NCBI GenBank assembly: GCA_902515775.1
Contig: CABXVU010000002.1
Span: 72,436-136,435, forward strand
DNA from: an uncultured SAR86 cluster bacterium
GTDB lineage: Bacteria > Pseudomonadota > Gammaproteobacteria > Magnimaribacterales > D2472
Direction of reading: 5' to 3'
DNA: 64,000 bases
Shown piece by piece: positions 35,299 to 42,832 of the stretch. Numbering within the stretch: the stretch's first letter is position 1; each line of letters begins with the position of its first letter. The position numbers and the translations under genes were made by a program. A model generated the notes under the pieces. It saw only the letters and a list, made by a program, of their open reading frames with translations, was not told where the DNA came from and made no database searches.

Positions 35299-36763
35299 TT
35301 GGAATGACTAAATTGATTTTTCTTTCAAGTGGAAAAATTGCTGCAATTTTAACTTTTATTTTCTGGCCAAGCTTATATACACCACCTCTTTTTCTACCCC
35401 TTAGAACACTTTGATTATTTAATAAATGATAATGATCATCAGGTAAGTCAGATACGTGCAAAAGACCAGATATAAAGTAGGGCTCTAAATTAATAAAAAG
35501 TCCAAAATCTGTCACTCCTGTGACCACTCCGTTCATTGATGAGCCTATTTTTCTTTTAAGATATTCACAGACTAATACTTGTTCTACTTGCCTAGATGCT
35601 TTTTCACCACGTCTTTCAAGCACTGAAGCATTTTCACATTCGTCTTGAAGTTCATTTTCTGTTCTATTTGGTTTCTTATGAGCGAGATAGGAGCTAATTA
35701 ATCTATGAACAAGTAAGTCAGGATACCTTCTAATTGGAGATGTAAAATGAGTATATTTTTGCAGTTGTAATCCAAAATGTCCTAAATTATTGGTTGAATA
35801 TTCTGCCCTAGCTAAAGTTTGAAGAACTAAGATTTTTCCAATATCGTCATTTTTTTTATTAGCTTTTACTAGACATGAGTTGATCACTTCAAGGGGGGAT
35901 AATTTTTTACTTATTTGAGCAGGGATATGGAAATGTTTTTTTAACAACTCGAGTTTACTGGCATCCGGATCCTCATGAACTCTGTAAACTCCAAGATTTA
36001 ATCGGTCCTGCATTAACTCTGCAGCAGATTCGTTAGCTAAGAGCATAGATTCTTCAACAAGCTTGTAGGAAAACAATGACTTTTTCACTAGAATATTTTT
36101 TACTTCTTTATTCTTATTTAATTCTAGGTTGATTTCTTTAGGATTTATTTCTAATGCTTTTCTTTTGTTTCGATGCATTAACCTTAAATTTGTAAGCTCA
36201 TTTAAATCATTGATTGAATCTCGAGCTTGAGGCAACTCTATTTTTGAAGAGCCTTGAAGATGTTTTTCTACCTGATTGTAAGTTAATCGAGCCTTGGATT
36301 TTATCAAACCACTGTAAAACTTATATTTACCCCTTTTGCCATCGCGGCCAAGGGACATTTCGCAAATCATTGCACATCTATCTTCATTGGGCTTTAAAGA
36401 GCAGATACCGTTAGATAAATCCTCTGGCAACATGGGTATAACTTTCGCTGGAAAATATATAGATGTGCCTCTTTTTTGAGCTTCTTTATCTGTTTTGGAT
36501 CCCGTTTTGACGTAAAACGATACATCGGCAATAGCAACAAATAGTTTGAAGCCGTTTCTATTTTGTTTGCAATAAATAGCATCATCAAAATCTTTTGCAT
36601 TCTCACCATCAATAGTTATGAAGGGTAATTTTCTTAAATCTTGCCTGTATTTTGATGCTTTCTTTTTTTTAGTTGCTTTCTTTGCTTCTTCCAAGACGTC
36701 TGAATGCCATTTTGATGGCAGCTCATGCATTGAGACTGCATCCAGGATTGCTTCTTTATACAT
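35288..36763 (-). CDS. rnr: Ribonuclease R family exoribonuclease, N-terminally shortened (RNB + S1 only)
   Basis: TIDGENAKDFDDA, VAIADVS, RGTSIY, YTHFTSPIRRYPDL-VHR, C-terminal S1 domain. Confidence 0.85.
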   Translation of the reverse strand: MYKEAILDAVSMHELPSKWHSDVLEEAKKATKKKKASKYRQDLRKLPFITIDGENAKDFDDAIYCKQNRNGFKLFVAIADVSFYVKTGSKTDKEAQKRGTSIYFPAKVIPMLPEDLSNGICSLKPNEDRCAMICEMSLGRDGKRGKYKFYSGLIKSKARLTYNQVEKHLQGSSKIELPQARDSINDLNELTNLRLMHRNKRKALEINPKEINLELNKNKEVKNILVKKSLFSYKLVEESMLLANESAAELMQDRLNLGVYRVHEDPDASKLELLKKHFHIPAQISKKLSPLEVINSCLVKANKKNDDIGKILVLQTLARAEYSTNNLGHFGLQLQKYTHFTSPIRRYPDLLVHRLISSYLAHKKPNRTENELQDECENASVLERRGEKASRQVEQVLVCEYLKRKIGSSMNGVVTGVTDFGLFINLEPYFISGLLHVSDLPDDHYHLLNNQSVLRGRKRGGVYKLGQKIKVKIAAIFPLERKINLVIPNGK

Positions 36764-36817
36764 TTAAAATATTTATTTCTATTGTAAATTAAATGAGATG
36801 ATATATATTATTGCGCT

Positions 36818-37102
36818 ATGAATCTCGGTCGTAATAGCAAAGTAATCTCATTTATTGGGTTATTTTTTCTAGCAAGTATATCATTGCATTCATTTGCACA
36901 CATTGATGAAAGCCCGATTGAATACCATGCTGAAGCTGAATGCCAAACTTGTCATAATGATATTTCACCTGAGGTAGAATTTTTTGCATTTATTCCAAAA
37001 AAATATTTTAACGAATTTAAGGGCTTTAAGAGTTCTGACAAATTATATCTACAATTAAGCAAACCTTATTTTTCTCAAGCGCCTCCTAAAATTATTATTT
37101 AA
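36818..37102 (+). CDS. Upstream ORF with signal/TM segment, His + CxxCH motif and C-terminal QAPP (DUF2946/CruR-like putative arrest peptide)
   Basis: Hydrophobic N-terminus, H24/H28/H37, CQTCH at residues 42-46, SQAPP at 86-90; 39 bp upstream of a TonB-dependent receptor. Confidence 0.7.
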   Translation: MNLGRNSKVISFIGLFFLASISLHSFAHIDESPIEYHAEAECQTCHNDISPEVEFFAFIPKKYFNEFKGFKSSDKLYLQLSKPYFSQAPPKIII

Positions 37103-37141
37103 TTTTTTTTTAAATTTTAATTTTTTAACATAGGAGGTTTT

Positions 37142-39421
37142 ATGAAAATTAATAAATTAGTATTCTTAGCTCTTGCCATATTCTCTTTCGATTCATTGCA
37201 AGCTAACACCATTGAAGAGGTAGTTGTTACATCCTCAATTATTGATAAGTCTACGAGTGAGATTGCCGACCCAATTCATATTGTTTCTAGCGATGATATT
37301 TCAACCGAAGCTACTCAAAGTTTAGGTGAGACAGTTGATGATCTATTAGGTGTTTCTACTGCTGATTATGGATCAGCTGTTGGACAACCAATTATCAGAG
37401 GTATGTCTGGCTCGAGAGTAAAAATTCTTGATAATGGTATTGTTAATCGAGATGTCTCAGGTCTTGGGGCCGATCATTTTAATGACATAGATCTTGGTAA
37501 TGCACAACAAATAGAGGTCGTTAGAGGACCATCATCTTTGCTTTATACCAATGGAGCAATTGGTGGAATCATCAATGTAGTTGATAACTCTATAGCCATG
37601 GAAGATGTAGAACAACTCGTAAAAGTTGGTGGTGAAACTCAATCGGTTAATGAGGGTAATACCACAACATTTTTCTATCAAGATAATCTAAATAATCTTA
37701 ATGTAAGTTTTGCTTACAAAAATACTGATCTAGAAAACTATGATGTGCCTAATGGTGCAATTATGCATGAAGAGGAAGAGCATCATGATGATGAAGATCA
37801 TGATGAGCATGAAGAAGAGCATGATGAGCATGAAGAAAATCTTGGCTTCTTGGCTAATTCAGATTTTGCATCTGAATCTATGAAATTTGGCGCGTCAGTT
37901 GTAAGTGATAATGGATATCTTGGGTTTTCTATATCAAGTTCTGAAAGTTCTTATGGTATTCCTTTTCATGGAGAAGGACATGAAGAACATGGCGATGAGC
38001 ATGAAGGTGAGGATGAGCATGAAGGTGAAAGAATTTTTACTAATACTGATTCAGATAAATTTGATATCAAAGGTTCATATGATCTAGATGGCTTTAATTT
38101 TGCTAACTCAGTTGATTTCTTTTTTAGAGATTCAGATTATTCTTTTACAGAACAACATGCAGAAGAGGAGCATGAAGAAGAAGAGCATCATGACGAAGAC
38201 GAACATGAGGAAGAGGGCCATGACGAACATGAGGGTCATGCTGAAGAAGGACCAACCACATTTACTAATGATTCTGCTGAAGCAGGATTTATTTTTGATC
38301 TTTCCAATGATCTTTTTTCTCAAAAAATCTCATTCAATCTTGTAAATGAAGATACAGCCATTTTTGGAGCAGAAGCTTTTATGAATTCTGCATCAAGAGA
38401 TGAAGCCACGATTGGATATTACTTAAGTAGAAGTTTTAACGATTTTGAACTAGATTTTGGCGTCAGATTTGACACCATTGATAATAAAGGTTCAGTCTCT
38501 TCAGCGCATGAAGAAGAGCATCATGACGAAGATGAAGAAGAGCATCACGACGAAGATGAAGAAGAGCATCATGATGAGCATGAAGAAATGGAAACTGACT
38601 ATTATGATAAATCCTTTGATAGCTCAAGTATTGCTTTCAATATTGGAAGGCAACTTAATGACTTTATTGATGTAAACCTTGGCTTTGCATCTGTTGAAAG
38701 AGCTCCTTCTTCAATTGAAATGTTCATGAATGGTGCACATTTGGCAACAGGAAGATTTGAGGTTGGTAATGTAAATCTAAATTCTGAGACTTCAAATAAT
38801 ATTGATTTTTCTGTCAATATTAATAATGGAAGTTTCTTCGCTTCAGCTATTGTTTTTGTGAATGATGTAGAAAATTACATTTATCTTCAAGACGAAACTG
38901 AGGAAGAGCATGAAGAGCATGATGAAGAGCATGAGGAGGGCCATGACGATCATGGCGGCTTGATTCTGGCGAATTATTTGCAACAAGATGCTGAACTAGA
39001 TGGATACGAAATTGAATTTGGTAACACTTTTGAGTTAGCTTCTGGCGAACTTTTAATGTCTTATGGCAGAGATGAGATTAATGGAGAATTTTCTAATGGC
39101 GGAAATATTCCAAGATTAAATCCTGCAAGAAACATCTATAAATTAAAATATTCTCAAGACGATATGAGCTTTGGATTAATGTTTAAAGATGTTGAGGAGC
39201 AAAACGATATTGGATTGGGTGAAACTGCAACCGCTGCTTATGATATGTTGAATGCTAAGTTCACTAAGACTTTTGATTTAGATAGTCAAAGTCAATTAAC
39301 TCTCTCAATATTTGGAAATAATTTAACTGATGAAGTTGCAAGAAATCATTCTTCATATGTTAAAAAAGAAGTTCCACTGCCAGGAAGAAATTATGGAGTT
39401 AGATTTAATTTAACTTTCTAA
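37142..39421 (+). CDS. TonB-dependent receptor, ZnuD-like, with five His/Glu-rich loops
   Basis: TonB box IEEVVVTS, GQPIIRGM, IEVVRGP--LLY, GAHLAT-RFE, ARNHSSY-K-...PLPGRN, terminal Phe; SD AGGAGG at 37132. Confidence 0.88.
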   Translation: MKINKLVFLALAIFSFDSLQANTIEEVVVTSSIIDKSTSEIADPIHIVSSDDISTEATQSLGETVDDLLGVSTADYGSAVGQPIIRGMSGSRVKILDNGIVNRDVSGLGADHFNDIDLGNAQQIEVVRGPSSLLYTNGAIGGIINVVDNSIAMEDVEQLVKVGGETQSVNEGNTTTFFYQDNLNNLNVSFAYKNTDLENYDVPNGAIMHEEEEHHDDEDHDEHEEEHDEHEENLGFLANSDFASESMKFGASVVSDNGYLGFSISSSESSYGIPFHGEGHEEHGDEHEGEDEHEGERIFTNTDSDKFDIKGSYDLDGFNFANSVDFFFRDSDYSFTEQHAEEEHEEEEHHDEDEHEEEGHDEHEGHAEEGPTTFTNDSAEAGFIFDLSNDLFSQKISFNLVNEDTAIFGAEAFMNSASRDEATIGYYLSRSFNDFELDFGVRFDTIDNKGSVSSAHEEEHHDEDEEEHHDEDEEEHHDEHEEMETDYYDKSFDSSSIAFNIGRQLNDFIDVNLGFASVERAPSSIEMFMNGAHLATGRFEVGNVNLNSETSNNIDFSVNINNGSFFASAIVFVNDVENYIYLQDETEEEHEEHDEEHEEGHDDHGGLILANYLQQDAELDGYEIEFGNTFELASGELLMSYGRDEINGEFSNGGNIPRLNPARNIYKLKYSQDDMSFGLMFKDVEEQNDIGLGETATAAYDMLNAKFTKTFDLDSQSQLTLSIFGNNLTDEVARNHSSYVKKEVPLPGRNYGVRFNLTF
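38507..38587 (+). repeat. In-frame 24-bp tandem repeat encoding EEEHHDED
   Basis: GAAGAAGAGCATCA(T/C)GACGAAGAT about three times. Related His/Glu blocks at about 37766-37837, 37967-38029, 38156-38248 and 38891-38953. Confidence 0.85.
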
Positions 39422-39442: not shown

Positions 39443-39484
39443 AAAACCGGGGGCTTGCTTATATTAAGCCCTCGGTTTTTTTTT
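39443..39484 (+). terminator. Intrinsic terminator after the ZnuD-like receptor
   Basis: AAAACCGGGGGCTT-loop-AAGCCCTCGG followed by T9. Confidence 0.85.
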
Positions 39485-39520
39485 ATTTATAATTCACTAA
39501 AAAAATTTATATTTACTAAT

Positions 39521-42100
39521 ATGAAAAAAATTAATTGCATTTACATGGCTATTATTTTTTTTGGAACTATTACTCTTGTTGCAGAAGAAACTGAGGAGGT
39601 TATTGCAGTTGCCTCATACATAGAATCAAGCGAACTGGACGCATCACCTGTGGATATTATTTCTGCTGAGGAATTTAAAAATTTAAGAGTTTCAACCGTA
39701 GCTGAGTTAAGTAAATATCTTAGTATTGCTTCAGGCTCTCATTTTCAAACTAATGCCTTAGATGGAATAGATCAAGGCATGGCCACAATAACTTTAAGGG
39801 GCCTAGGTCATTCATCAACCTTGGTTCTAGTAAATAAAAAAAGACAGACTCATTCAGGAACACCTTCTGATGAAGGAGAAGGATACATTGACATAAATAT
39901 TATTCCTGAAATAGCGCTTGAAAGAATAGAAATTCTTAAAGATGGGGCAACATCATTATATGGATCTGATGCCATTGCAGGAGTAATTAACTTTCAAACA
40001 TATCAACAGTTTGACGGGATGCGTTTTTTATTAGGCTCTCAAAAGACTAGTAATTATGACCAAAGAGATAAAACTATAGGTGTCTTGTTTGGCGGCAAGT
40101 TTTGGGAGGGCAATTATGTATTAGCGCTAAGTTCCTTAAATAAATCACCACTAAATGCGGCAAGCATACCTAAATTCGCAGAACTTGGTCTAAGCGGCTT
40201 GGGCAACAGTTTCAAAATCACACAAGCTGACTCAGTTGCAACAGGAACATACGCAGGAAGTTATAGCAAAAATCAAACAATTCCAGATCCAAATTGCATA
40301 AAAAATGGAGGAGTAATTGCCGGTCCAAGATGCAAGTTCTTGTATGGTGAAAGATTCAACATAGTAAATGATGAAGACCACTTAAAAGGATATTTCCATT
40401 TTGTGAAATCTATTTTTGATATAGATTATTCGATGACTTTGATGACAGCCTCAATTGATGTCAATGATAATCCTCAATCTCCGTCCTATCCAGCTTTGTC
40501 GTATTTATCTAAAGAGATTTTTCCAGGTCAGGGAGGCAGTCCATTTAACGTGCCGGTTATTTGGTATGGCAGACCTTTAGGCTCTGCATTTCCATCACCA
40601 AATTCACCTAAAGCTATCACGCAATATCATTTCAGCAATACTTTAAATTTTAATATGGCCAAAGATTTAAATTTTGAATTATCTTTGACAGCAAGCGAAC
40701 ATGAGAATAAGCATCAGCGTCCAGATACAATAGAGTCAAGATTTGAAGATGCAATTTTAGGAAGAGGCGGTCCTGACGGCAATGAGCAATGGAATATATT
40801 TTTGCCATTAGAAAATTCAGTTACTCTGATAGATTACATCAAAGGTTCAGAGACCTCTCTTAAGATTGGTAGCTTGTTATCTTTGGATGGAATTCTTACT
40901 GGTAACAAAAATGGAATTAACTTTGCTTTTGGTTTTCAATTCAATGCAGAAGATTTAGAAATTAATTATTCTGAGACCAGCAGAGCTGAATTTGATCAAG
41001 ATGGAAAGTTAACCAAAGCTGCCGATTTATTATTCTTGGGCGGCGGTAAAAACGTTGACACTAGTAGAAATAAACAAGCTATTTTTTTTGAAACAAATAA
41101 GAATTTTGAAAATGTTTTAGATTTAATTTTATCTGGTCGCTATGAAAGACTTGATAATAACTCCTCATTCGATCCAAGAATTTCTTTTAAGTATTTAGCT
41201 TCAGAAAATTTCTTTTTACGAGGTTCATTTGGAACTTCTTTTACTGCTCCTTCGATGGCACAGATGTTTTCATCTGAGATTCAGCTTGGTAGCGTTAGAG
41301 ATATTAATGATTCTCCATTCGTACGTTTAGCATTATTAGGGAATCAATACTTAAAGCCTGCAACATCTGAAAATATTAATTTTGGTTTTAAATGGAATGT
41401 TACGAATGAATTAGATTTGATAATAGATTATTGGAAAATTGATTATAAAAATCGAATTGAAGTAGAAAGTCCTCAGGTATTACTAAATACTGATCCTTTT
41501 GCACCAAGTGTTACTAGAAATCAATTTGGAGAGTTAATAGCAGTAAGCACATCATATTTTAATGAAGAAAAAACTGAAGTTAGTGGCATTGATGCTGAAA
41601 TAAACTTTTTAAAAATTGTAGAAATTGGAGAATTCAGCTATTCCATTAAGGCAACACAATTGTCCGAATTCCTGACACCTGAAAATCAAGGTGGAGATAA
41701 TTTTAATATGGTTAACAGGGTTGGAAATTTTAACTTTGATGCTAATACTCATTCCTTGCCTAAATTGAGATTAAATTCATTCTTCAGCTGGACAATTAAT
41801 GATTTAAAGATTGGTATAAATTCAAGGTATGTTGATGGATATTCAAATGACCGTCAGATCCCTGCATCTGCTATAAGTTTAGGTTATACAAATTACGTTA
41901 AATCTTTTTTAGTACACGATTTTTCAATTATTAAGTCGTTTCAGCTTTCTTCTAGCGAAATAAAATTTGGCATGGGAATTATCAATGCTTTTGATAAGCA
42001 GGCACCTCTTTTATATGACGCTCCAGACTTTAGTTTTGATACAAGAGTGCATGATCCAAGAGGTCGATTAATTAATTTAACATTGGAACTTAATTTATAA
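39521..42100 (+). CDS. TonB-dependent receptor, substrate unknown
   Basis: Start moved to ATG 39521 (signal peptide). Plug motifs LRGLG--STLVLVN and ERIEILKDGATSLYGSDAIAGVIN; C-terminal DPRGR. Confidence 0.88.
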   Translation: MKKINCIYMAIIFFGTITLVAEETEEVIAVASYIESSELDASPVDIISAEEFKNLRVSTVAELSKYLSIASGSHFQTNALDGIDQGMATITLRGLGHSSTLVLVNKKRQTHSGTPSDEGEGYIDINIIPEIALERIEILKDGATSLYGSDAIAGVINFQTYQQFDGMRFLLGSQKTSNYDQRDKTIGVLFGGKFWEGNYVLALSSLNKSPLNAASIPKFAELGLSGLGNSFKITQADSVATGTYAGSYSKNQTIPDPNCIKNGGVIAGPRCKFLYGERFNIVNDEDHLKGYFHFVKSIFDIDYSMTLMTASIDVNDNPQSPSYPALSYLSKEIFPGQGGSPFNVPVIWYGRPLGSAFPSPNSPKAITQYHFSNTLNFNMAKDLNFELSLTASEHENKHQRPDTIESRFEDAILGRGGPDGNEQWNIFLPLENSVTLIDYIKGSETSLKIGSLLSLDGILTGNKNGINFAFGFQFNAEDLEINYSETSRAEFDQDGKLTKAADLLFLGGGKNVDTSRNKQAIFFETNKNFENVLDLILSGRYERLDNNSSFDPRISFKYLASENFFLRGSFGTSFTAPSMAQMFSSEIQLGSVRDINDSPFVRLALLGNQYLKPATSENINFGFKWNVTNELDLIIDYWKIDYKNRIEVESPQVLLNTDPFAPSVTRNQFGELIAVSTSYFNEEKTEVSGIDAEINFLKIVEIGEFSYSIKATQLSEFLTPENQGGDNFNMVNRVGNFNFDANTHSLPKLRLNSFFSWTINDLKIGINSRYVDGYSNDRQIPASAISLGYTNYVKSFLVHDFSIIKSFQLSSSEIKFGMGIINAFDKQAPLLYDAPDFSFDTRVHDPRGRLINLTLELNL

Positions 42101-42316: not shown

Positions 42317-42832
42317 ATGAGAATTAACCTTAACCAAGATAGTGATAGTGTCATGACAGGCCCTGGTGAACACTATGCAAAGGAAATATCTGGAGCTGGG
42401 AATGCATTTGCATTAGCAATATATGAACATAGCAAGCTTCCATTAAGGGTCTTTGAAGCTGCTCGAATTGCAACGGCGATGATTAATGGTTGTATGATTT
42501 GTATGAATTGGCAGTCAAAAAGAGACGTGCATCAAATGGGTATTACTAAGGGCGTTATTGAAAATGGTGAAGCACCTAATAAAGACTTTTACTCTAATTT
42601 ACTCAGTGAGAATTATGTTCATTTATCTAAAAAGGAGTTATTGGCAGTCAAATTTGCTAAAGCTATGGGTGAAGACCCAAAAGGATTATCTAATGATGAA
42701 AAATTTTGGGTTGAGGTAAAGGATGTTTTTTCAGATGCAGAGATTACGGATCTAACCTATTGTATTGCTGGATGGATGGGTATGGGTAGAGTTGCTCATG
42801 TGCTGGGTTTAGATCAGAATTGTGAGATGTAA
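42317..42832 (+). CDS. Carboxymuconolactone decarboxylase / AhpD-like protein
   Basis: EAARIATAMINGCMIC (CxxC) and FSDAEITDLT. Confidence 0.75.
   Translation: MRINLNQDSDSVMTGPGEHYAKEISGAGNAFALAIYEHSKLPLRVFEAARIATAMINGCMICMNWQSKRDVHQMGITKGVIENGEAPNKDFYSNLLSENYVHLSKKELLAVKFAKAMGEDPKGLSNDEKFWVEVKDVFSDAEITDLTYCIAGWMGMGRVAHVLGLDQNCEM

What the first reader, a model, noticed from the sequence alone, without database searches (positions are those of the whole stretch)
36782..37144. Candidate metal-sensing ribosome-arrest switch: QAPP uORF whose Pro-Pro codons pair with the SD of a ZnuD-like receptor
Seen in sequence: the 94-aa ORF has a signal/TM segment, His residues plus CQTCH (42-46), and ends SQAPPKIII. 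The nucleotides at Ala-Pro-Pro, GCCUCCUA (37081-37088), are complementary to UAGGAGGU (37131-37138), the receptor's SD. Only A/U-rich sequence separates them, so it offers little competing structure. The CxxC lies about 41 residues before QAPP, roughly one exit-tunnel length. Known: RAPP-type motifs stall ribosomes (ApdA/ApdP), and CruR/CutF-like DUF2946 uORFs with CxxC plus RAPP regulate downstream copper genes, including a TonB-dependent transporter. Inference: a ribosome stalled on QAPP opens the anti-SD helix and permits receptor translation, while metal binding or export pulling relieves the stall and shuts it off. With a His-rich receptor and no obvious Zur box, this may be a repressor-free Zn (or Ni/Co) sensing system in a streamlined marine bacterium.
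Basis: partly seen in the sequence, partly recalled or inferred. Interest (0 to 1): 0.88.

Follow-up and report, generated by a model that had tools for sequence, protein, structure and literature searches.

The report
Ribosome-arrest leader gating a metal receptor
A tiny exported leader peptide that ends in a ribosome-stalling motif sits in front of a zinc-receptor-like outer-membrane transporter, and its stalling codons fold back onto the transporter's ribosome-binding site: a compact marine variant of the recently described copper-sensing CruR/CutF switches.

Summary
ORF 36818-37102 encodes a 94-aa peptide with a TM or signal segment, His residues, CQTC, a 41-residue spacer and QAPPKIII. 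Its Ala-Pro-Pro nucleotides pair with the AGGAGG of the receptor gene that starts at 37142 (fold z -4.19).

Comparative data make it a conserved module. The receptor ortholog occurs in 47 of 61 related genomes, and each copy has such a leader directly upstream. Outside the window's genus the motif is canonical RAPP: 81 of 89 motif-bearing cluster representatives, with CxxC-to-motif spacing of 40-41 in 75 of 89. In 47 of 55 loci the minimum-energy fold pairs the SD core with the Ala-Pro-Pro codons.

The class is already published: CruR/DUF2946 (RAPP leader before a TonB transporter), CutF (a stall melts an SD-shielding stem-loop), and QAPP as a proven arrest variant. The new points are:
- the family is missed by the Pfam DUF2946 and DUF2607 models;
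- the spacing is shorter and the intergenic region is only 33-57 nt;
- the arrest codons themselves act as the anti-SD;
- the leader looks leaderless;
- the partner receptor is ZnuD-like and His-rich, in a lineage with one Fur-family gene.

The CCU-CCU codon claim is only partly upheld. Metal identity and polarity remain inference.

The parts
36782..36809 (+). Promoter-like element: TTGTAA, 16 nt, TATATT. The -10 hexamer ends 8 nt before the leader's ATG, which implies a leaderless or nearly leaderless transcript.
   Evidence: consensus scan; 5 sites found against 3.5 +/- 1.5 expected, so weak on its own; a TANNNT starting at -16 to -11 is present in 22 of 22 loci of the genus and 28 of 39 overall. 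No SD-like sequence precedes the leader start in 38 of 39 loci.
36818..37102 (+). Leader ORF (uORF) of 94 aa: N-terminal TM/signal segment, His residues, CxxC, a 41-residue variable spacer, and the arrest-type C-terminus KPYFSQAPPKIII.
   Evidence: 180 homologues at E<=0.01. 128 cluster representatives at 50% identity. Mean column identity in 92 homologues of 94 aa: TM+HIDE 0.95, linker 0.64, C-terminus 0.89.
36842..36898 (+). Codons 9-27, the hydrophobic export or membrane segment. It is preceded by Arg5 and Lys8 and followed by an acidic, His-rich stretch.
   Evidence: Kyte-Doolittle maximum 1.95. The sequence is nearly invariant in the genus. No signal-peptide predictor was available.
36887..36952 (+). 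Putative metal-binding stretch from His24 to Cys45 (H24, H28, acidic residues, E41-C42-x-x-C45).
   Evidence: H28, C42 and C45 are invariant in the 19-sequence alignment that spans several genera. His/Asp/Glu-rich in distant members. The His after CxxC is not conserved, so this is not a haem CxxCH site.
37061..37087 (+). Arrest-type motif KPYFSQAPP (residues 82-90). The predicted stall has Pro89 (37082-37084) in the P site and Pro90 (37085-37087) in the A site.
   Evidence: Conservation. The P-site/A-site assignment is by analogy with the CruR toeprint (PMC12992588, passages seen). It was not tested here.
37081..37138 (+). SD-sequestering hairpin. The 5' arm is 37081-37102 (last base of the Ala codon, Pro-Pro-Lys-Ile-Ile-Ile codons and the stop). 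The 3' arm is 37110-37138 (AU-rich intergenic sequence plus UAGGAGGU).
   Evidence: z -4.19. 37 of 40 loci have z < -2. Within the genus 90.5% of cells are paired, against 35-60% when the register is slid. The SD core pairs with the Ala-Pro-Pro codons in 47 of 55 loci.
37133..37144 (+). Shine-Dalgarno GGAGG (37133-37137) and start codon ATG (37142-37144) of the receptor.
   Evidence: An AGGAGG-type SD is conserved in the loci.
37142..39421 (+). TonB-dependent receptor of 759 aa (Plug plus beta-barrel) with several acidic His-rich inserts; ZnuD-like.
   Evidence: Pfam Plug and barrel. The best NCBIfam hit is ZnuD at 167.9 bits, far below its 950-bit cut-off. The best solved structure is ZnuD 4rdr at E 5e-31; the next best is 4e-10 and OprC is 7e-4. 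Orthologues follow the leader in 29 of 30 loci.
39443..39489 (+). Intrinsic terminator-like hairpin with a T-run. It closes a two-gene unit (leader plus receptor).
   Evidence: (15-pair stem, 7 GC pairs; 1 site found against 0.1 expected) and the sequence.

Best explanation
The 94-aa ORF is a regulatory leader peptide of the RAPP class of ribosome arrest peptides. It is a compact, divergent relative or analogue of CruR/CutF (DUF2946-type).

Proposed sequence of events:
- It is transcribed from its own promoter, probably as a leaderless mRNA, together with one gene, a ZnuD-like His-rich TonB-dependent receptor.
- While the leader is translated, its N-terminal hydrophobic segment directs the nascent chain to the membrane.
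- The ribosome stalls with Pro89 in the P site and Pro90 in the A site (QAPP here, RAPP in other genera).
- The stalled ribosome sits on the 5' arm of a hairpin made of the Ala-Pro-Pro-Lys-Ile codons and the stop codon. The 3' arm, which holds the receptor's AGGAGG, is therefore free, and a second ribosome can start on the receptor: ON.
- When the stall is released, translation ends 4 codons later, the ribosome leaves and the hairpin re-forms. The CCUCC of the Pro codons copies the 16S rRNA anti-SD and masks the SD: OFF.
- Release is proposed to be triggered when the His/CxxC site, held a fixed 40-41 residues from the arrest motif, binds its metal. This would shut off an uptake receptor when metal is sufficient, which is the CruR polarity.

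The metal is most likely Zn(II) or a similar divalent ion, because the partner is ZnuD-like. Cu is the main alternative.

Shown here: the anatomy, its conservation, the hairpin and the linkage to the receptor. Inferred: the stall itself, metal binding, the polarity and the identity of the metal.
For: (a) Family-wide conservation is limited to the TM segment, one His, CxxC and the C-terminal [NSD][FY]xS[RQ]APPK motif, with a variable linker of fixed length. Invariant residues are F17, H28, C42, C45, A88, P89 and P90. Spacing is 40-41 in 75 of 89 representatives, and the tail is 2 residues in 62 of 89.

(b) The motif is RAPP in 81 of 89 representatives, QAPP in 4, RGPP in 2. QAPP is a published arrest variant whose Gln is needed for arrest (PMC10987492, passages). 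RAPP/RGPP small secretory ORFs are enriched upstream of TonB receptors, and CruR arrest has been shown in vitro (PMC12992588, section 13 and passages).

(c) The leader lies directly upstream of the receptor ortholog in all 47 of 61 related genomes that hold the receptor. In the 15 genomes where the single-sequence search missed it, inspection found it in 15 of 15.

(d) Hairpin. The window's z is -4.19. 37 of 40 loci have z < -2. The SD core pairs with the Ala-Pro-Pro codons in 47 of 55 loci, and with the stall-to-stop segment in 49 of 55. Within the genus 90.5% of cells are paired, against 35-60% in slid registers, and 2 pairs change on both sides.

(e) Alternative registers keep the SD masked where Pro1 is not CCU:
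- GCU-CC pairs with GGAG-U (L028, L041, L047, L082, L095).
- In L044, the CCG Pro codons and the following AA (CCGAA) pair with UUCGG, and the ACC just upstream pairs with GGU.
- CUCU of the Asn-Ser-stop codons serves in L030 and L096.
- A UAG stop is matched by CUA in the spacer in L040 and L042, and AUA by UAU in L020.

(f) The intergenic region is always short (33-57 nt) and AU-rich.

(g) CutF gives a published precedent for a stall that melts an SD-shielding stem-loop (bioRxiv 10.1101/2025.02.05.636593, abstract and discussion).

(h) Receptor. ZnuD is the closest solved structure by 20 orders of magnitude in E-value. A terminator lies right after the receptor.
Against: No experiment of any kind supports this. 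Stalling at this QAPP, metal binding and regulation are all untested.

- The Pfam DUF2946 and DUF2607 models do not recognise any of 19 members. Direct profile-profile comparison with 29 bona fide DUF2946 proteins gives only 38% probability.
- Covariation in the SD/anti-SD helix is essentially absent. The core pairs never vary, and 36 of 500 shuffles reach the observed number of pairs with changes on both sides. RNAalifold finds no consensus on the 40-sequence MAFFT alignment.
- Synonymous recoding leaves the SD mostly paired, so the codon choice adds little.
- The first Pro codon is CCU in only 16 of 33 loci outside the genus (p = 0.14).
- 6 of 55 loci do not pair the SD with the stall-to-stop segment in the MFE.
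- Some family members lack the second Cys (e.g. P0144, P0151, P0178), which weakens a strict CxxC metal site.
- The ZnuD assignment is by best hit only, 168 bits against a cut-off of 950. No ZnuA was found in the 78%-complete genome.
- For CutF, metal induces stalling rather than relieving it, so the polarity could be the reverse.
Confidence: 0.65

Rival explanations
1. The arrest leader is the same, but the output is CruR-like. The stalled ribosome blocks Rho, and release allows Rho-dependent termination before the receptor. The hairpin would then be incidental or a pause element.
For: This is the demonstrated mechanism for the closest characterised leader-plus-TonB-transporter pair, CruR-BfrG/CrtA (PMC9426467, abstract and sections 9-11).
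Against: The intergenic region is 39 nt (33-57 across 55 loci), against 162 nt for cruR-bfrG. It is almost free of C, whereas rut sites are C-rich (PMC9426467 discussion). The hairpin that includes the SD is conserved and unusually stable. No terminator-like site lies between the genes.
Confidence: 0.08
2. The ORF encodes a stable small exported or membrane-anchored metal-binding protein, such as a metallochaperone or receptor partner. The C-terminal motif and the hairpin would only tune the translational ratio of the two genes, without ligand-controlled arrest.
For: The TM segment and the His/Cys residues are the best conserved parts (0.95 identity). The module is co-inherited with the receptor, as partner proteins are.
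Against: The roughly 33-residue body between CxxC and the C-terminus is poorly conserved in sequence but fixed in length, which is typical of a tether and not of a fold. RAPP-like motifs are strongly avoided in ordinary proteins and are concentrated at the C-termini of small secretory leaders (PMC12992588, abstract and section 13). The genome census found only 4 [RQ][AG]PP motifs in 1757 ORFs of 60 aa or more, and 2 of them are C-terminal in roughly 100-aa TM peptides upstream of TonB receptors.
Confidence: 0.12
3. The leader monitors secretion or membrane insertion capacity (a pulling force from Sec/YidC), like SecM, ApdA or ApdP, and not a metal. The His and Cys residues would be irrelevant to release.
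For: Most characterised RAPP-class peptides are secretion monitors (PMC7897499 and PMC10987492, search listing and passages). The leader has an export segment.
Against: The downstream gene is a metal-type receptor and not a Sec or YidC component. One His and CxxC at a fixed distance from the arrest site are the family's invariant features, as in CruR, where CxxC is required for copper control (PMC9426467, section 9).
Confidence: 0.08
4. The switch is as in the best explanation but senses copper, as CruR and CutF do, with the receptor importing Cu or a Cu chelate.
For: CxxC is a classical Cu(I) motif. Every characterised member of the class responds to Cu. His-rich acidic loops also bind Cu(II).
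Against: The receptor scores 111 bits against ZnuD but only 21 bits against OprC, and 168 against 42 bits for the NCBIfam ZnuD and TonB-copper models. There is no PepSY_TM, PCuAC, Sco or YcnI gene in the unit, which ends at a terminator. CrtA-type operons carry PepSY_TM in more than 75% of loci (PMC12914433, section 4).
Confidence: 0.25

Closest known systems
CruR (Bordetella pertussis Bp2923; Pfam DUF2946) upstream of the TonB transporter CrtA/BfrG
   Same: Small first gene of the operon with an export signal, an invariant CxxC, a fixed spacer and a C-terminal RAPP-type motif a few residues before the stop, directly upstream of a TonB-dependent transporter. The proposed logic is also shared: a stall gives ON, and metal relieves the stall to give OFF for an uptake gene.
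   Different: This leader is 94 aa, against 125-172 aa (29 of the 30 sampled DUF2946 proteins; L060 left out). Spacing is 40-41 residues, against 44-47. The tail is 2-4 residues, against mostly 3. The motif is QAPP in this genus. The Pfam model does not detect it. The intergenic region is 39 nt and AU-rich, against 162 nt and GC-rich. The likely output is SD unmasking and not Rho. The receptor is ZnuD-like and not CrtA-type, and no PepSY_TM gene follows.
CutF-CutO of Rhodobacter capsulatus (DUF2946 family)
   Same: [quoted passage not shown] A periplasm-facing Cys motif acts as the sensor.
   Different: CutF uses CxxxC and a PPP motif that depends on EF-P. There, Cu induces the stall and turns on a detoxifying oxidase, which is the opposite polarity and a different kind of target. 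Here the arrest codons themselves form the anti-SD strand.
RAPP-like arrest peptides (ApdA, ApdP, the 'RQH family' including QAPP; Sakiyama 2021, Fujiwara 2024/2025, Morici 2024)
   Same: A C-terminal [RQH][AG]PP motif with a conserved adjacent N-terminal stretch and an N-terminal localisation signal, in a small ORF upstream of the regulated gene. QAPP was shown to arrest in a Myxococcales leader.
   Different: Those peptides are mostly encoded upstream of secA, secDF or yidC and sense translocation. This one carries a His/CxxC site and precedes a metal receptor. The 2025 census counted RAPP and RGPP only, so the QAPP genus would not have been captured (my reading of section 13; the supplements were closed).
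Pfam DUF2607 (PF10795)
   Same: The one member over the cut-off that was retrieved (L080, 92 aa) has the same plan and similar local motifs: a TM segment, 'LLHAYDLEEHDEH', CQIC, a spacer and TRAPP plus 3 residues. It is the nearest named cluster by language-model features (rank 17, score 0.93).
   Different: No member of the window's family reaches the model at E<=1. The spacer in L080 is 45 residues by my count. Only 2 of 301 sampled genomes of the class hold the family, so the comparison rests on one sequence plus five short DUF2946-like proteins.
ZnuD (Neisseria meningitidis zinc-piracy TonB receptor; PDB 4rdr)
   Same: It is the best sequence match of the downstream receptor, in the plug and the C-terminal barrel. 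Both have acidic His-rich extracellular inserts.
   Different: The score is only 168 bits against the NCBIfam cut-off of 950. This receptor has about five long His/Asp/Glu inserts. No Zur box and no Zur gene are evident. Regulation would be by a leader peptide instead of Zur.

Membership tests
DUF2946 / CruR family | Match to Pfam PF11162 above the gathering score | tested here: not met
   0 of 19 members from several genera hit PF11162 at E<=1. The genome-wide search of G000 found no match. Of 10 borderline representatives, one (P0244) reaches E 0.02 and 16 bits, against a cut-off of 23.7.
DUF2946 / CruR family | Invariant CXXC motif | tested here: met
   C42 and C45 are invariant in alignment A1. 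A minority of representatives lack the second Cys.
DUF2946 / CruR family | C-terminal RAPP about 3 residues before the end | tested here: inconclusive
   The window has QAPP plus 4 residues. Relatives have RAPP (81 of 89) plus mostly 2 residues. QAPP is a known arrest variant, but it is not the family's motif.
DUF2946 / CruR family | CXXC-to-RAPP spacing of 45 residues, conserved to within 1-2 | tested here: not met
   The spacing here is 41. In the family it is 40 (19 representatives), 41 (56) and 42-46 (14) of 89. Bona fide DUF2946 sampled here has 44-47 in 29 of 30. It is equally tight, but 4-5 residues shorter.
DUF2946 / CruR family | N-terminal export signal, and first gene of an operon that contains a TonB transporter | tested here: met
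   Hydrophobic residues 9-27 follow Arg5 and Lys8. A receptor lies downstream in 55 of 55 loci examined, 54 of them the ZnuD-like ortholog and one (L019) a different TonB receptor. No dedicated signal-peptide predictor was available.
DUF2946 / CruR family | Detectable homology by profile-profile comparison | tested here: inconclusive
   Family (96 sequences) against 29 DUF2946 proteins: probability 38%, E 3.4e-4, collinear over TM, CxxC and RAPP. Core family (68 sequences) against a 6-sequence bridging group that I assembled: 85%, E 6e-6, 90 columns. Bridging group against DUF2946: 60%.
DUF2607 (PF10795) | Match to the Pfam model above the gathering score | tested here: not met
   No hit at E<=1 for 19 members. 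The only link is the feature-based Atlas hit and the hhalign result through the bridging group.
RAPP-like (RQH) ribosome arrest peptides | Conserved C-terminal [RQH][AG]PP with a conserved adjacent upstream stretch, in a small ORF with a localisation signal, upstream of the regulated gene | tested here: met
   (the conserved pattern [NSD][FY]xSRAPPKI).
RAPP-like (RQH) ribosome arrest peptides | Actual elongation arrest with Pro in the P site and Pro-tRNA in the A site | not testable with these tools
   This needs in vitro translation and toeprinting. The only basis is analogy with CruR, ApdA and ApdP.
CutF/SecM/erm-type SD-shielding leader switches | A stem-loop containing the downstream SD, with its other strand under the stalled ribosome | tested here: met
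   The 5' arm at 37081-37102 lies at -1 to +20 relative to the P-site codon (my geometry, inferred).
ZnuD-type zinc receptors (downstream gene) | NCBIfam ZnuD model above its cut-off; Zur control | tested here: not met
   167.9 bits against a cut-off of 950. The best Zur-box-like match is 14 of 23, using consensus motifs recalled from memory (for the lack of a second Fur-family gene, for the boxes). ZnuD is nevertheless the closest solved structure.

The most novel reading that the evidence does not exclude
This is a zinc-responsive (or Zn/Co/Cd-type) nascent-peptide switch. The His/Cys2 site of the exported leader would read periplasmic metal while the chain is still tethered to a stalled ribosome, and would directly gate translation of a ZnuD-like scavenging receptor. 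It would replace the Zur repressor in a whole order of streamlined marine Gammaproteobacteria that keep only Fur. That would be the first arrest peptide sensing a metal other than copper. A second, different RAPP leader before another TonB receptor in the same 1.3-Mb genome hints that leader-peptide arrest is a general way in which these genome-reduced cells control their many TonB receptors without transcription factors.
Probability: 0.3. Interest if true: 0.8.

Novelty: new variant of a known kind. Interest (0 to 1): 0.55.

Why it matters
If it works as proposed, it extends the CruR/CutF principle: a nascent exported peptide senses a metal and controls the next gene through ribosome arrest. 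The extension covers a family that current domain models do not detect, a different receptor type (ZnuD-like) and abundant genome-streamlined marine bacteria that appear to lack Zur.

The locus is also an unusually clean minimal design. It has a leaderless leader, a 39-nt spacer, and arrest codons that double as the anti-SD strand. That makes it a convenient model for testing how spacer length, pulling force and metal binding release a RAPP-class stall.

For ocean biogeochemistry it would give a sequence marker for post-transcriptional trace-metal control that metatranscriptomes alone would miss.

Tried and rejected
- **Haem-binding CxxCH (small cytochrome c).** This was suggested by CQTCH and a sub-threshold PccH hit (E 0.02). 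I rejected it because the His after CxxC is replaced by Q, L or N in many close homologues.
- **Pfam and NCBIfam scans of the leader and 18 relatives.** No family was found. Rfam found nothing in 36600-37300 at E<=1.
- **RNAalifold on the 40-locus MAFFT alignment.** It gave no consensus structure, because the inner AU helix sits in different registers in different subgroups. I therefore counted pairs on hand-written structures and folded each locus on its own.
- **Synonymous-recoding test of SD pairing.** The measure saturates: native 0.75-1.00, recoded means 0.70-1.00. It cannot show selection on codons.
- **Enrichment of CCU at the first Pro codon.** It looked significant in the first 18 non-genus loci (12 of 18, p = 0.012) but faded with 15 more loci (16 of 33, p = 0.14). 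I keep only the association between Ala = GCU and Pro1 not being CCU (8 of 17 against 1 of 16, Fisher 0.011). I regard even that as suggestive, because the loci are kin.
- **Fur and Zur boxes.** The best matches are 11 of 19 and 14 of 23, no better than about 1% and 0.2% of window positions.
- **Expression.** Contigs from four metatranscriptome runs cover parts of the leader (for example 36672-37065) and of the receptor. They break at the AU-rich hairpin, cannot show starts or strand, and may include DNA. I draw no conclusion about transcription, habitat or a transcription start from them.
- **The search for homologous proteins with the two bridging proteins.** These gave 4 hits and 0 hits, so no proper DUF2607 alignment could be built.
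- **Neighbouring ORFs.** The ORFs at 42317 and 43143 have no Pfam family, and there is no metal-related context in the window.
- **Literature searches.** Searches for a printed link between arrest peptides and zinc or ZnuD gave the following. 'ZnuD'+'RAPP' returned 30 papers; the 10 listed are vaccine and infection-biology titles with no arrest-peptide topic, and the other 20 were not seen. 'CruR'+'zinc'+'TonB-dependent' returned 2 copper papers. 'QAPP'+'TonB' returned 2 papers, of which only Fujiwara 2024 was listed. 'arrest peptide'+'zinc uptake'+'TonB-dependent' returned 0.
- **Closed supplements.** Supplementary tables of the CruR, CrtA and EMBO J papers were closed. They may already list RAPP-bearing members of this family.

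Full report
**What is there.** The window is low-GC DNA (36.7%; the whole 1.26-Mb, 78%-complete assembly is 34.8%). Between a divergently transcribed RNase R-type gene (RNB+S1) and a TonB-dependent receptor lies ORF 36818-37102, 94 aa.
- a hydrophobic segment at residues 9-27;
- His24, His28, His37 and His46;
- CQTCH at 42-46;
- QAPP at 87-90, followed by KIII and a stop;
- 41 residues between Cys45 and Gln87;
- GCCUCCUA (37081-37088) facing UAGGAGGU (37131-37138), with seven Watson-Crick pairs and one G-U;
- the receptor ATG at 37142;
- only A/U and one C between the two arms.

RNAfold predicts exactly this helix, extended by an AU helix between the Lys-Ile-Ile-Ile-stop codons and the spacer. 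The MFE is -19.4 kcal/mol, z -4.19, and none of 200 shuffles is as stable.

**It is a real, conserved gene.** A word-indexed search found 180 homologues, mostly of 94 aa and none with a Pfam domain. A profile search of 1.84 billion cluster representatives found 128 clusters at E<=1e-3.

Conservation is confined to four parts:
- the TM segment plus 'HIDE' (0.95 mean column identity in 92 homologues of 94 aa);
- ECxxC (0.82);
- the C-terminus KPFxSQAPPK (0.89);
- the length, but not the sequence, of the linker (0.64).

Across genera the invariant residues are F17, H28, C42, C45, A88, P89 and P90.

The key result is that QAPP is a local variant. All 22 loci of the window's genus have QAPP. Other genera and families of the same order have S/T-RAPP. 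Among the 127 representatives printed, 89 carry CxxC plus an x[AG]PP motif near the end: RAPP 81, QAPP 4, RGPP 2, TAPP 1, NAPP 1. The CxxC-to-motif spacing is 40 in 19, 41 in 56 and 42-46 in 14. The tail after Pro-Pro is 2 residues in 62. The other 38 are truncated, lack the second Cys or are unrelated (one multihaem protein).

The His of 'CQTCH' is not conserved, so a haem site is excluded.

**Linkage to the receptor.** The downstream gene (37142-39421) has Plug and barrel domains. It scores best with the NCBIfam ZnuD model, at 167.9 bits, far below the 950-bit cut-off; TonB-copper scores 42 bits. Its closest solved structure is ZnuD 4rdr (E 5e-31), against 4e-10 for the next hit and 7e-4 for OprC. 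It carries several long His/Asp/Glu inserts.

Its ortholog was found in 47 of 61 related genomes, and a leader lies directly upstream in all 47:
- 21 in the genus, including the window;
- 11 found by the leader query;
- 15 that the single-sequence query had missed but inspection found (15 of 15).

In the genus, no genome has the receptor without the leader. One genome (L019) has the leader in front of the ortholog of the window's second TonB receptor. A terminator-like hairpin with a T-run follows the receptor at 39443-39489, so the unit is leader plus receptor.

**Start of the unit.** A TTGTAA-16-TATATT promoter-like element ends 8 nt before the leader ATG. The same -35 and -10 arrangement is present in 22 of 22 loci of the genus. 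An SD-like sequence precedes the leader start in only 1 of 39 loci. I infer a leaderless or nearly leaderless transcript. This is an inference from consensus matches only.

**The RNA.** Folding each of 40 loci from the Ala codon to the receptor start gives z < -2 in 37 of 40 (median -4.5). In 55 loci the MFE pairs at least 3 of the 4 SD-core bases with the Ala-Pro-Pro codons in 47, and with the stretch from the R/Q codon to the stop in 49. The intergenic distance is 33-57 nt. In two of the six exceptions (L023, L087) the SD pairs with UUCCU just 5' of the motif.

Within the genus, 90.5% of the cells of a 21-pair structure are standard pairs, against 35-60% when the partner is slid by 1-3 columns. 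Two pairs change on both sides, and 16 of 500 shuffles reach that.

The SD/anti-SD core itself never varies, so it gives no covariation signal. RNAalifold finds no consensus on the mixed alignment.

Individual compensations are visible in the sequences:
- The stop codon UAG, instead of UAA, is matched by CUA instead of UUA in the spacer (L040, L042).
- AUA-AAA, instead of AUU-AAU, is matched by UUUUUAU in L020.
- An entirely different tail (Ile-Ser-stop) is matched by its exact complement in L082.

**The codon claim.** Genome codon usage for Pro is CCA 46% and CCU 38%.
- The second Pro codon is CCU in only 4 of 22 genus loci and 13 of 33 other loci.
- The first is CCU in 20 of 22 genus loci but 16 of 33 other loci (p = 0.14).

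Where the first is not CCU, the Ala codon is GCU in 8 of 17 loci, against 1 of 16 where it is CCU (Fisher 0.011; the loci are kin, so this is only suggestive). That recreates CUCC one codon upstream, opposite a GGAG-U type SD.

Random synonymous recoding leaves the SD mostly paired. The pairing is thus largely built into 'Pro-Pro plus a strong SD plus an AU-only spacer'. The conserved thing is the architecture and not CCU-CCU.

**How it most likely works.** By analogy with the CruR toeprint (P site = third residue of the motif, A site = fourth; PMC12992588, passages), the ribosome would stall with 37082-37084 in the P site. The 5' arm of the hairpin (37081-37102) then lies at -1 to +20, mostly inside the ribosome. 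The remaining 6-bp AU stem cannot hold, and the SD, 51 nt downstream, is free: receptor ON.

After release, four more codons are read, the ribosome leaves and the hairpin closes: OFF.

The fixed 40-41-residue tether puts the CxxC just outside the exit tunnel, at the translocon, when the stall occurs. Metal binding or folding there is the proposed release trigger. For an uptake receptor the CruR polarity (metal gives release gives OFF) makes sense. CutF shows that the opposite polarity is possible. All of this paragraph is inference.

**Which metal.** ZnuD-likeness, the lack of Cu-linked partner genes and a His/Cys2-type site favour Zn or a similar divalent ion. The class precedent favours Cu.

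On Zur: 55 of 61 related genomes have a Fur-family gene over the cut-off, and only 3 have a second one. The one tested is the Fur equivalog (197 bits against a cut-off of 146). G000's lack of Fur reflects its 78% completeness. No Fur- or Zur-box-like site stands out, using consensus motifs recalled from memory. ZnuA was not found in G000.

This is consistent with, but does not prove, Zur-free control.

**Comparison with what is known.**
- CruR: a DUF2946 leader with CxxC, 45 residues and RAPP, before a TonB transporter. Copper relieves the arrest and Rho terminates (PMC9426467; abstract and sections 9-11 read).
- QAPP is a validated arrest variant (PMC10987492, passages).
- RAPP/RGPP small secretory ORFs are enriched upstream of TonB receptors (PMC12992588; section 13 read).

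The kind is therefore known.

Membership in DUF2946 or DUF2607 is not met by the Pfam models. The spacing differs: 41 here against 44-47 in 29 of 30 sampled DUF2946 proteins. Profile-profile comparison gives:
- 38% directly;
- 85% to a 6-sequence bridging group that I assembled from one DUF2607 member and five short DUF2946-like proteins;
- 60% from that group to DUF2946.

A language-model search puts a DUF2607 cluster at rank 17 (score 0.93). I read this as a probable, very divergent, compact branch of the same superfamily. Convergence is not excluded.

Noticed in passing
G000 contig C11:17697-17999 (locus L079:298-600), outside the window: The same genome holds a second, different RAPP-type leader of 100 aa: a TM segment, His, CxxxxCxxC, and RAPP 9 residues before the stop. 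Its last codons overlap the ATG of another 651-aa TonB-dependent receptor (L079:593-2548). It has no Pfam hit at E<=1. A census of [RQ][AG]PP motifs found 4 in 1757 ORFs of 60 aa or more, and 2 of them are these leaders.
   Followed up: partly
window 36782-36820: The leader appears to be leaderless. The -10 hexamer ends 8 nt before the ATG and there is no SD. The -35/-10 arrangement is conserved in 22 of 22 loci of the genus. In some relatives gene callers chose an ATG 6 codons upstream that lies inside the -10 element (the 100-aa forms).
   Followed up: partly
L019 (G023:C55), locus coordinates 1492-2152: In one genome of the genus the QAPP leader and its hairpin sit directly in front of the ortholog of the window's second TonB receptor (window 39522-42100) instead of the ZnuD-like one. 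That genome gave no match for the ZnuD-like receptor.
   Followed up: no
window 37730-38960 (receptor residues about 199-222, 267-292, 340-367, 455-487, 576-598): The receptor carries five long inserts made almost only of His, Glu and Asp. Their length varies between orthologues. Metatranscriptome contigs join them in different ways, as expected for repetitive coding sequence.
   Followed up: no
relatives G001-G060; L036:1474-1881: The order has, as a rule, a single Fur-family gene, which is the Fur equivalog. A second, weaker Fur-family gene (49-59 bits) occurs in only 3 of 61 genomes (G008, G023, G029).
   Followed up: partly
representatives P0144, P0151, P0167, P0178, P0194, P0197, P0205, P0217, P0219, P0235: A minority of family members have lost the second Cys of CxxC (for example C-x-Y-N or C-x-F-S) but keep the His-rich stretch, the spacing and RAPP. 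This is unexplained if CxxC is the sensor.
   Followed up: no
window 39443-39522: A strong intrinsic terminator-like hairpin follows the ZnuD-like receptor. A separate promoter-like site precedes the second TonB receptor, whose likely start is the ATG at 39522 and not the TTG at 39455 listed by the ORF tool.
   Followed up: partly
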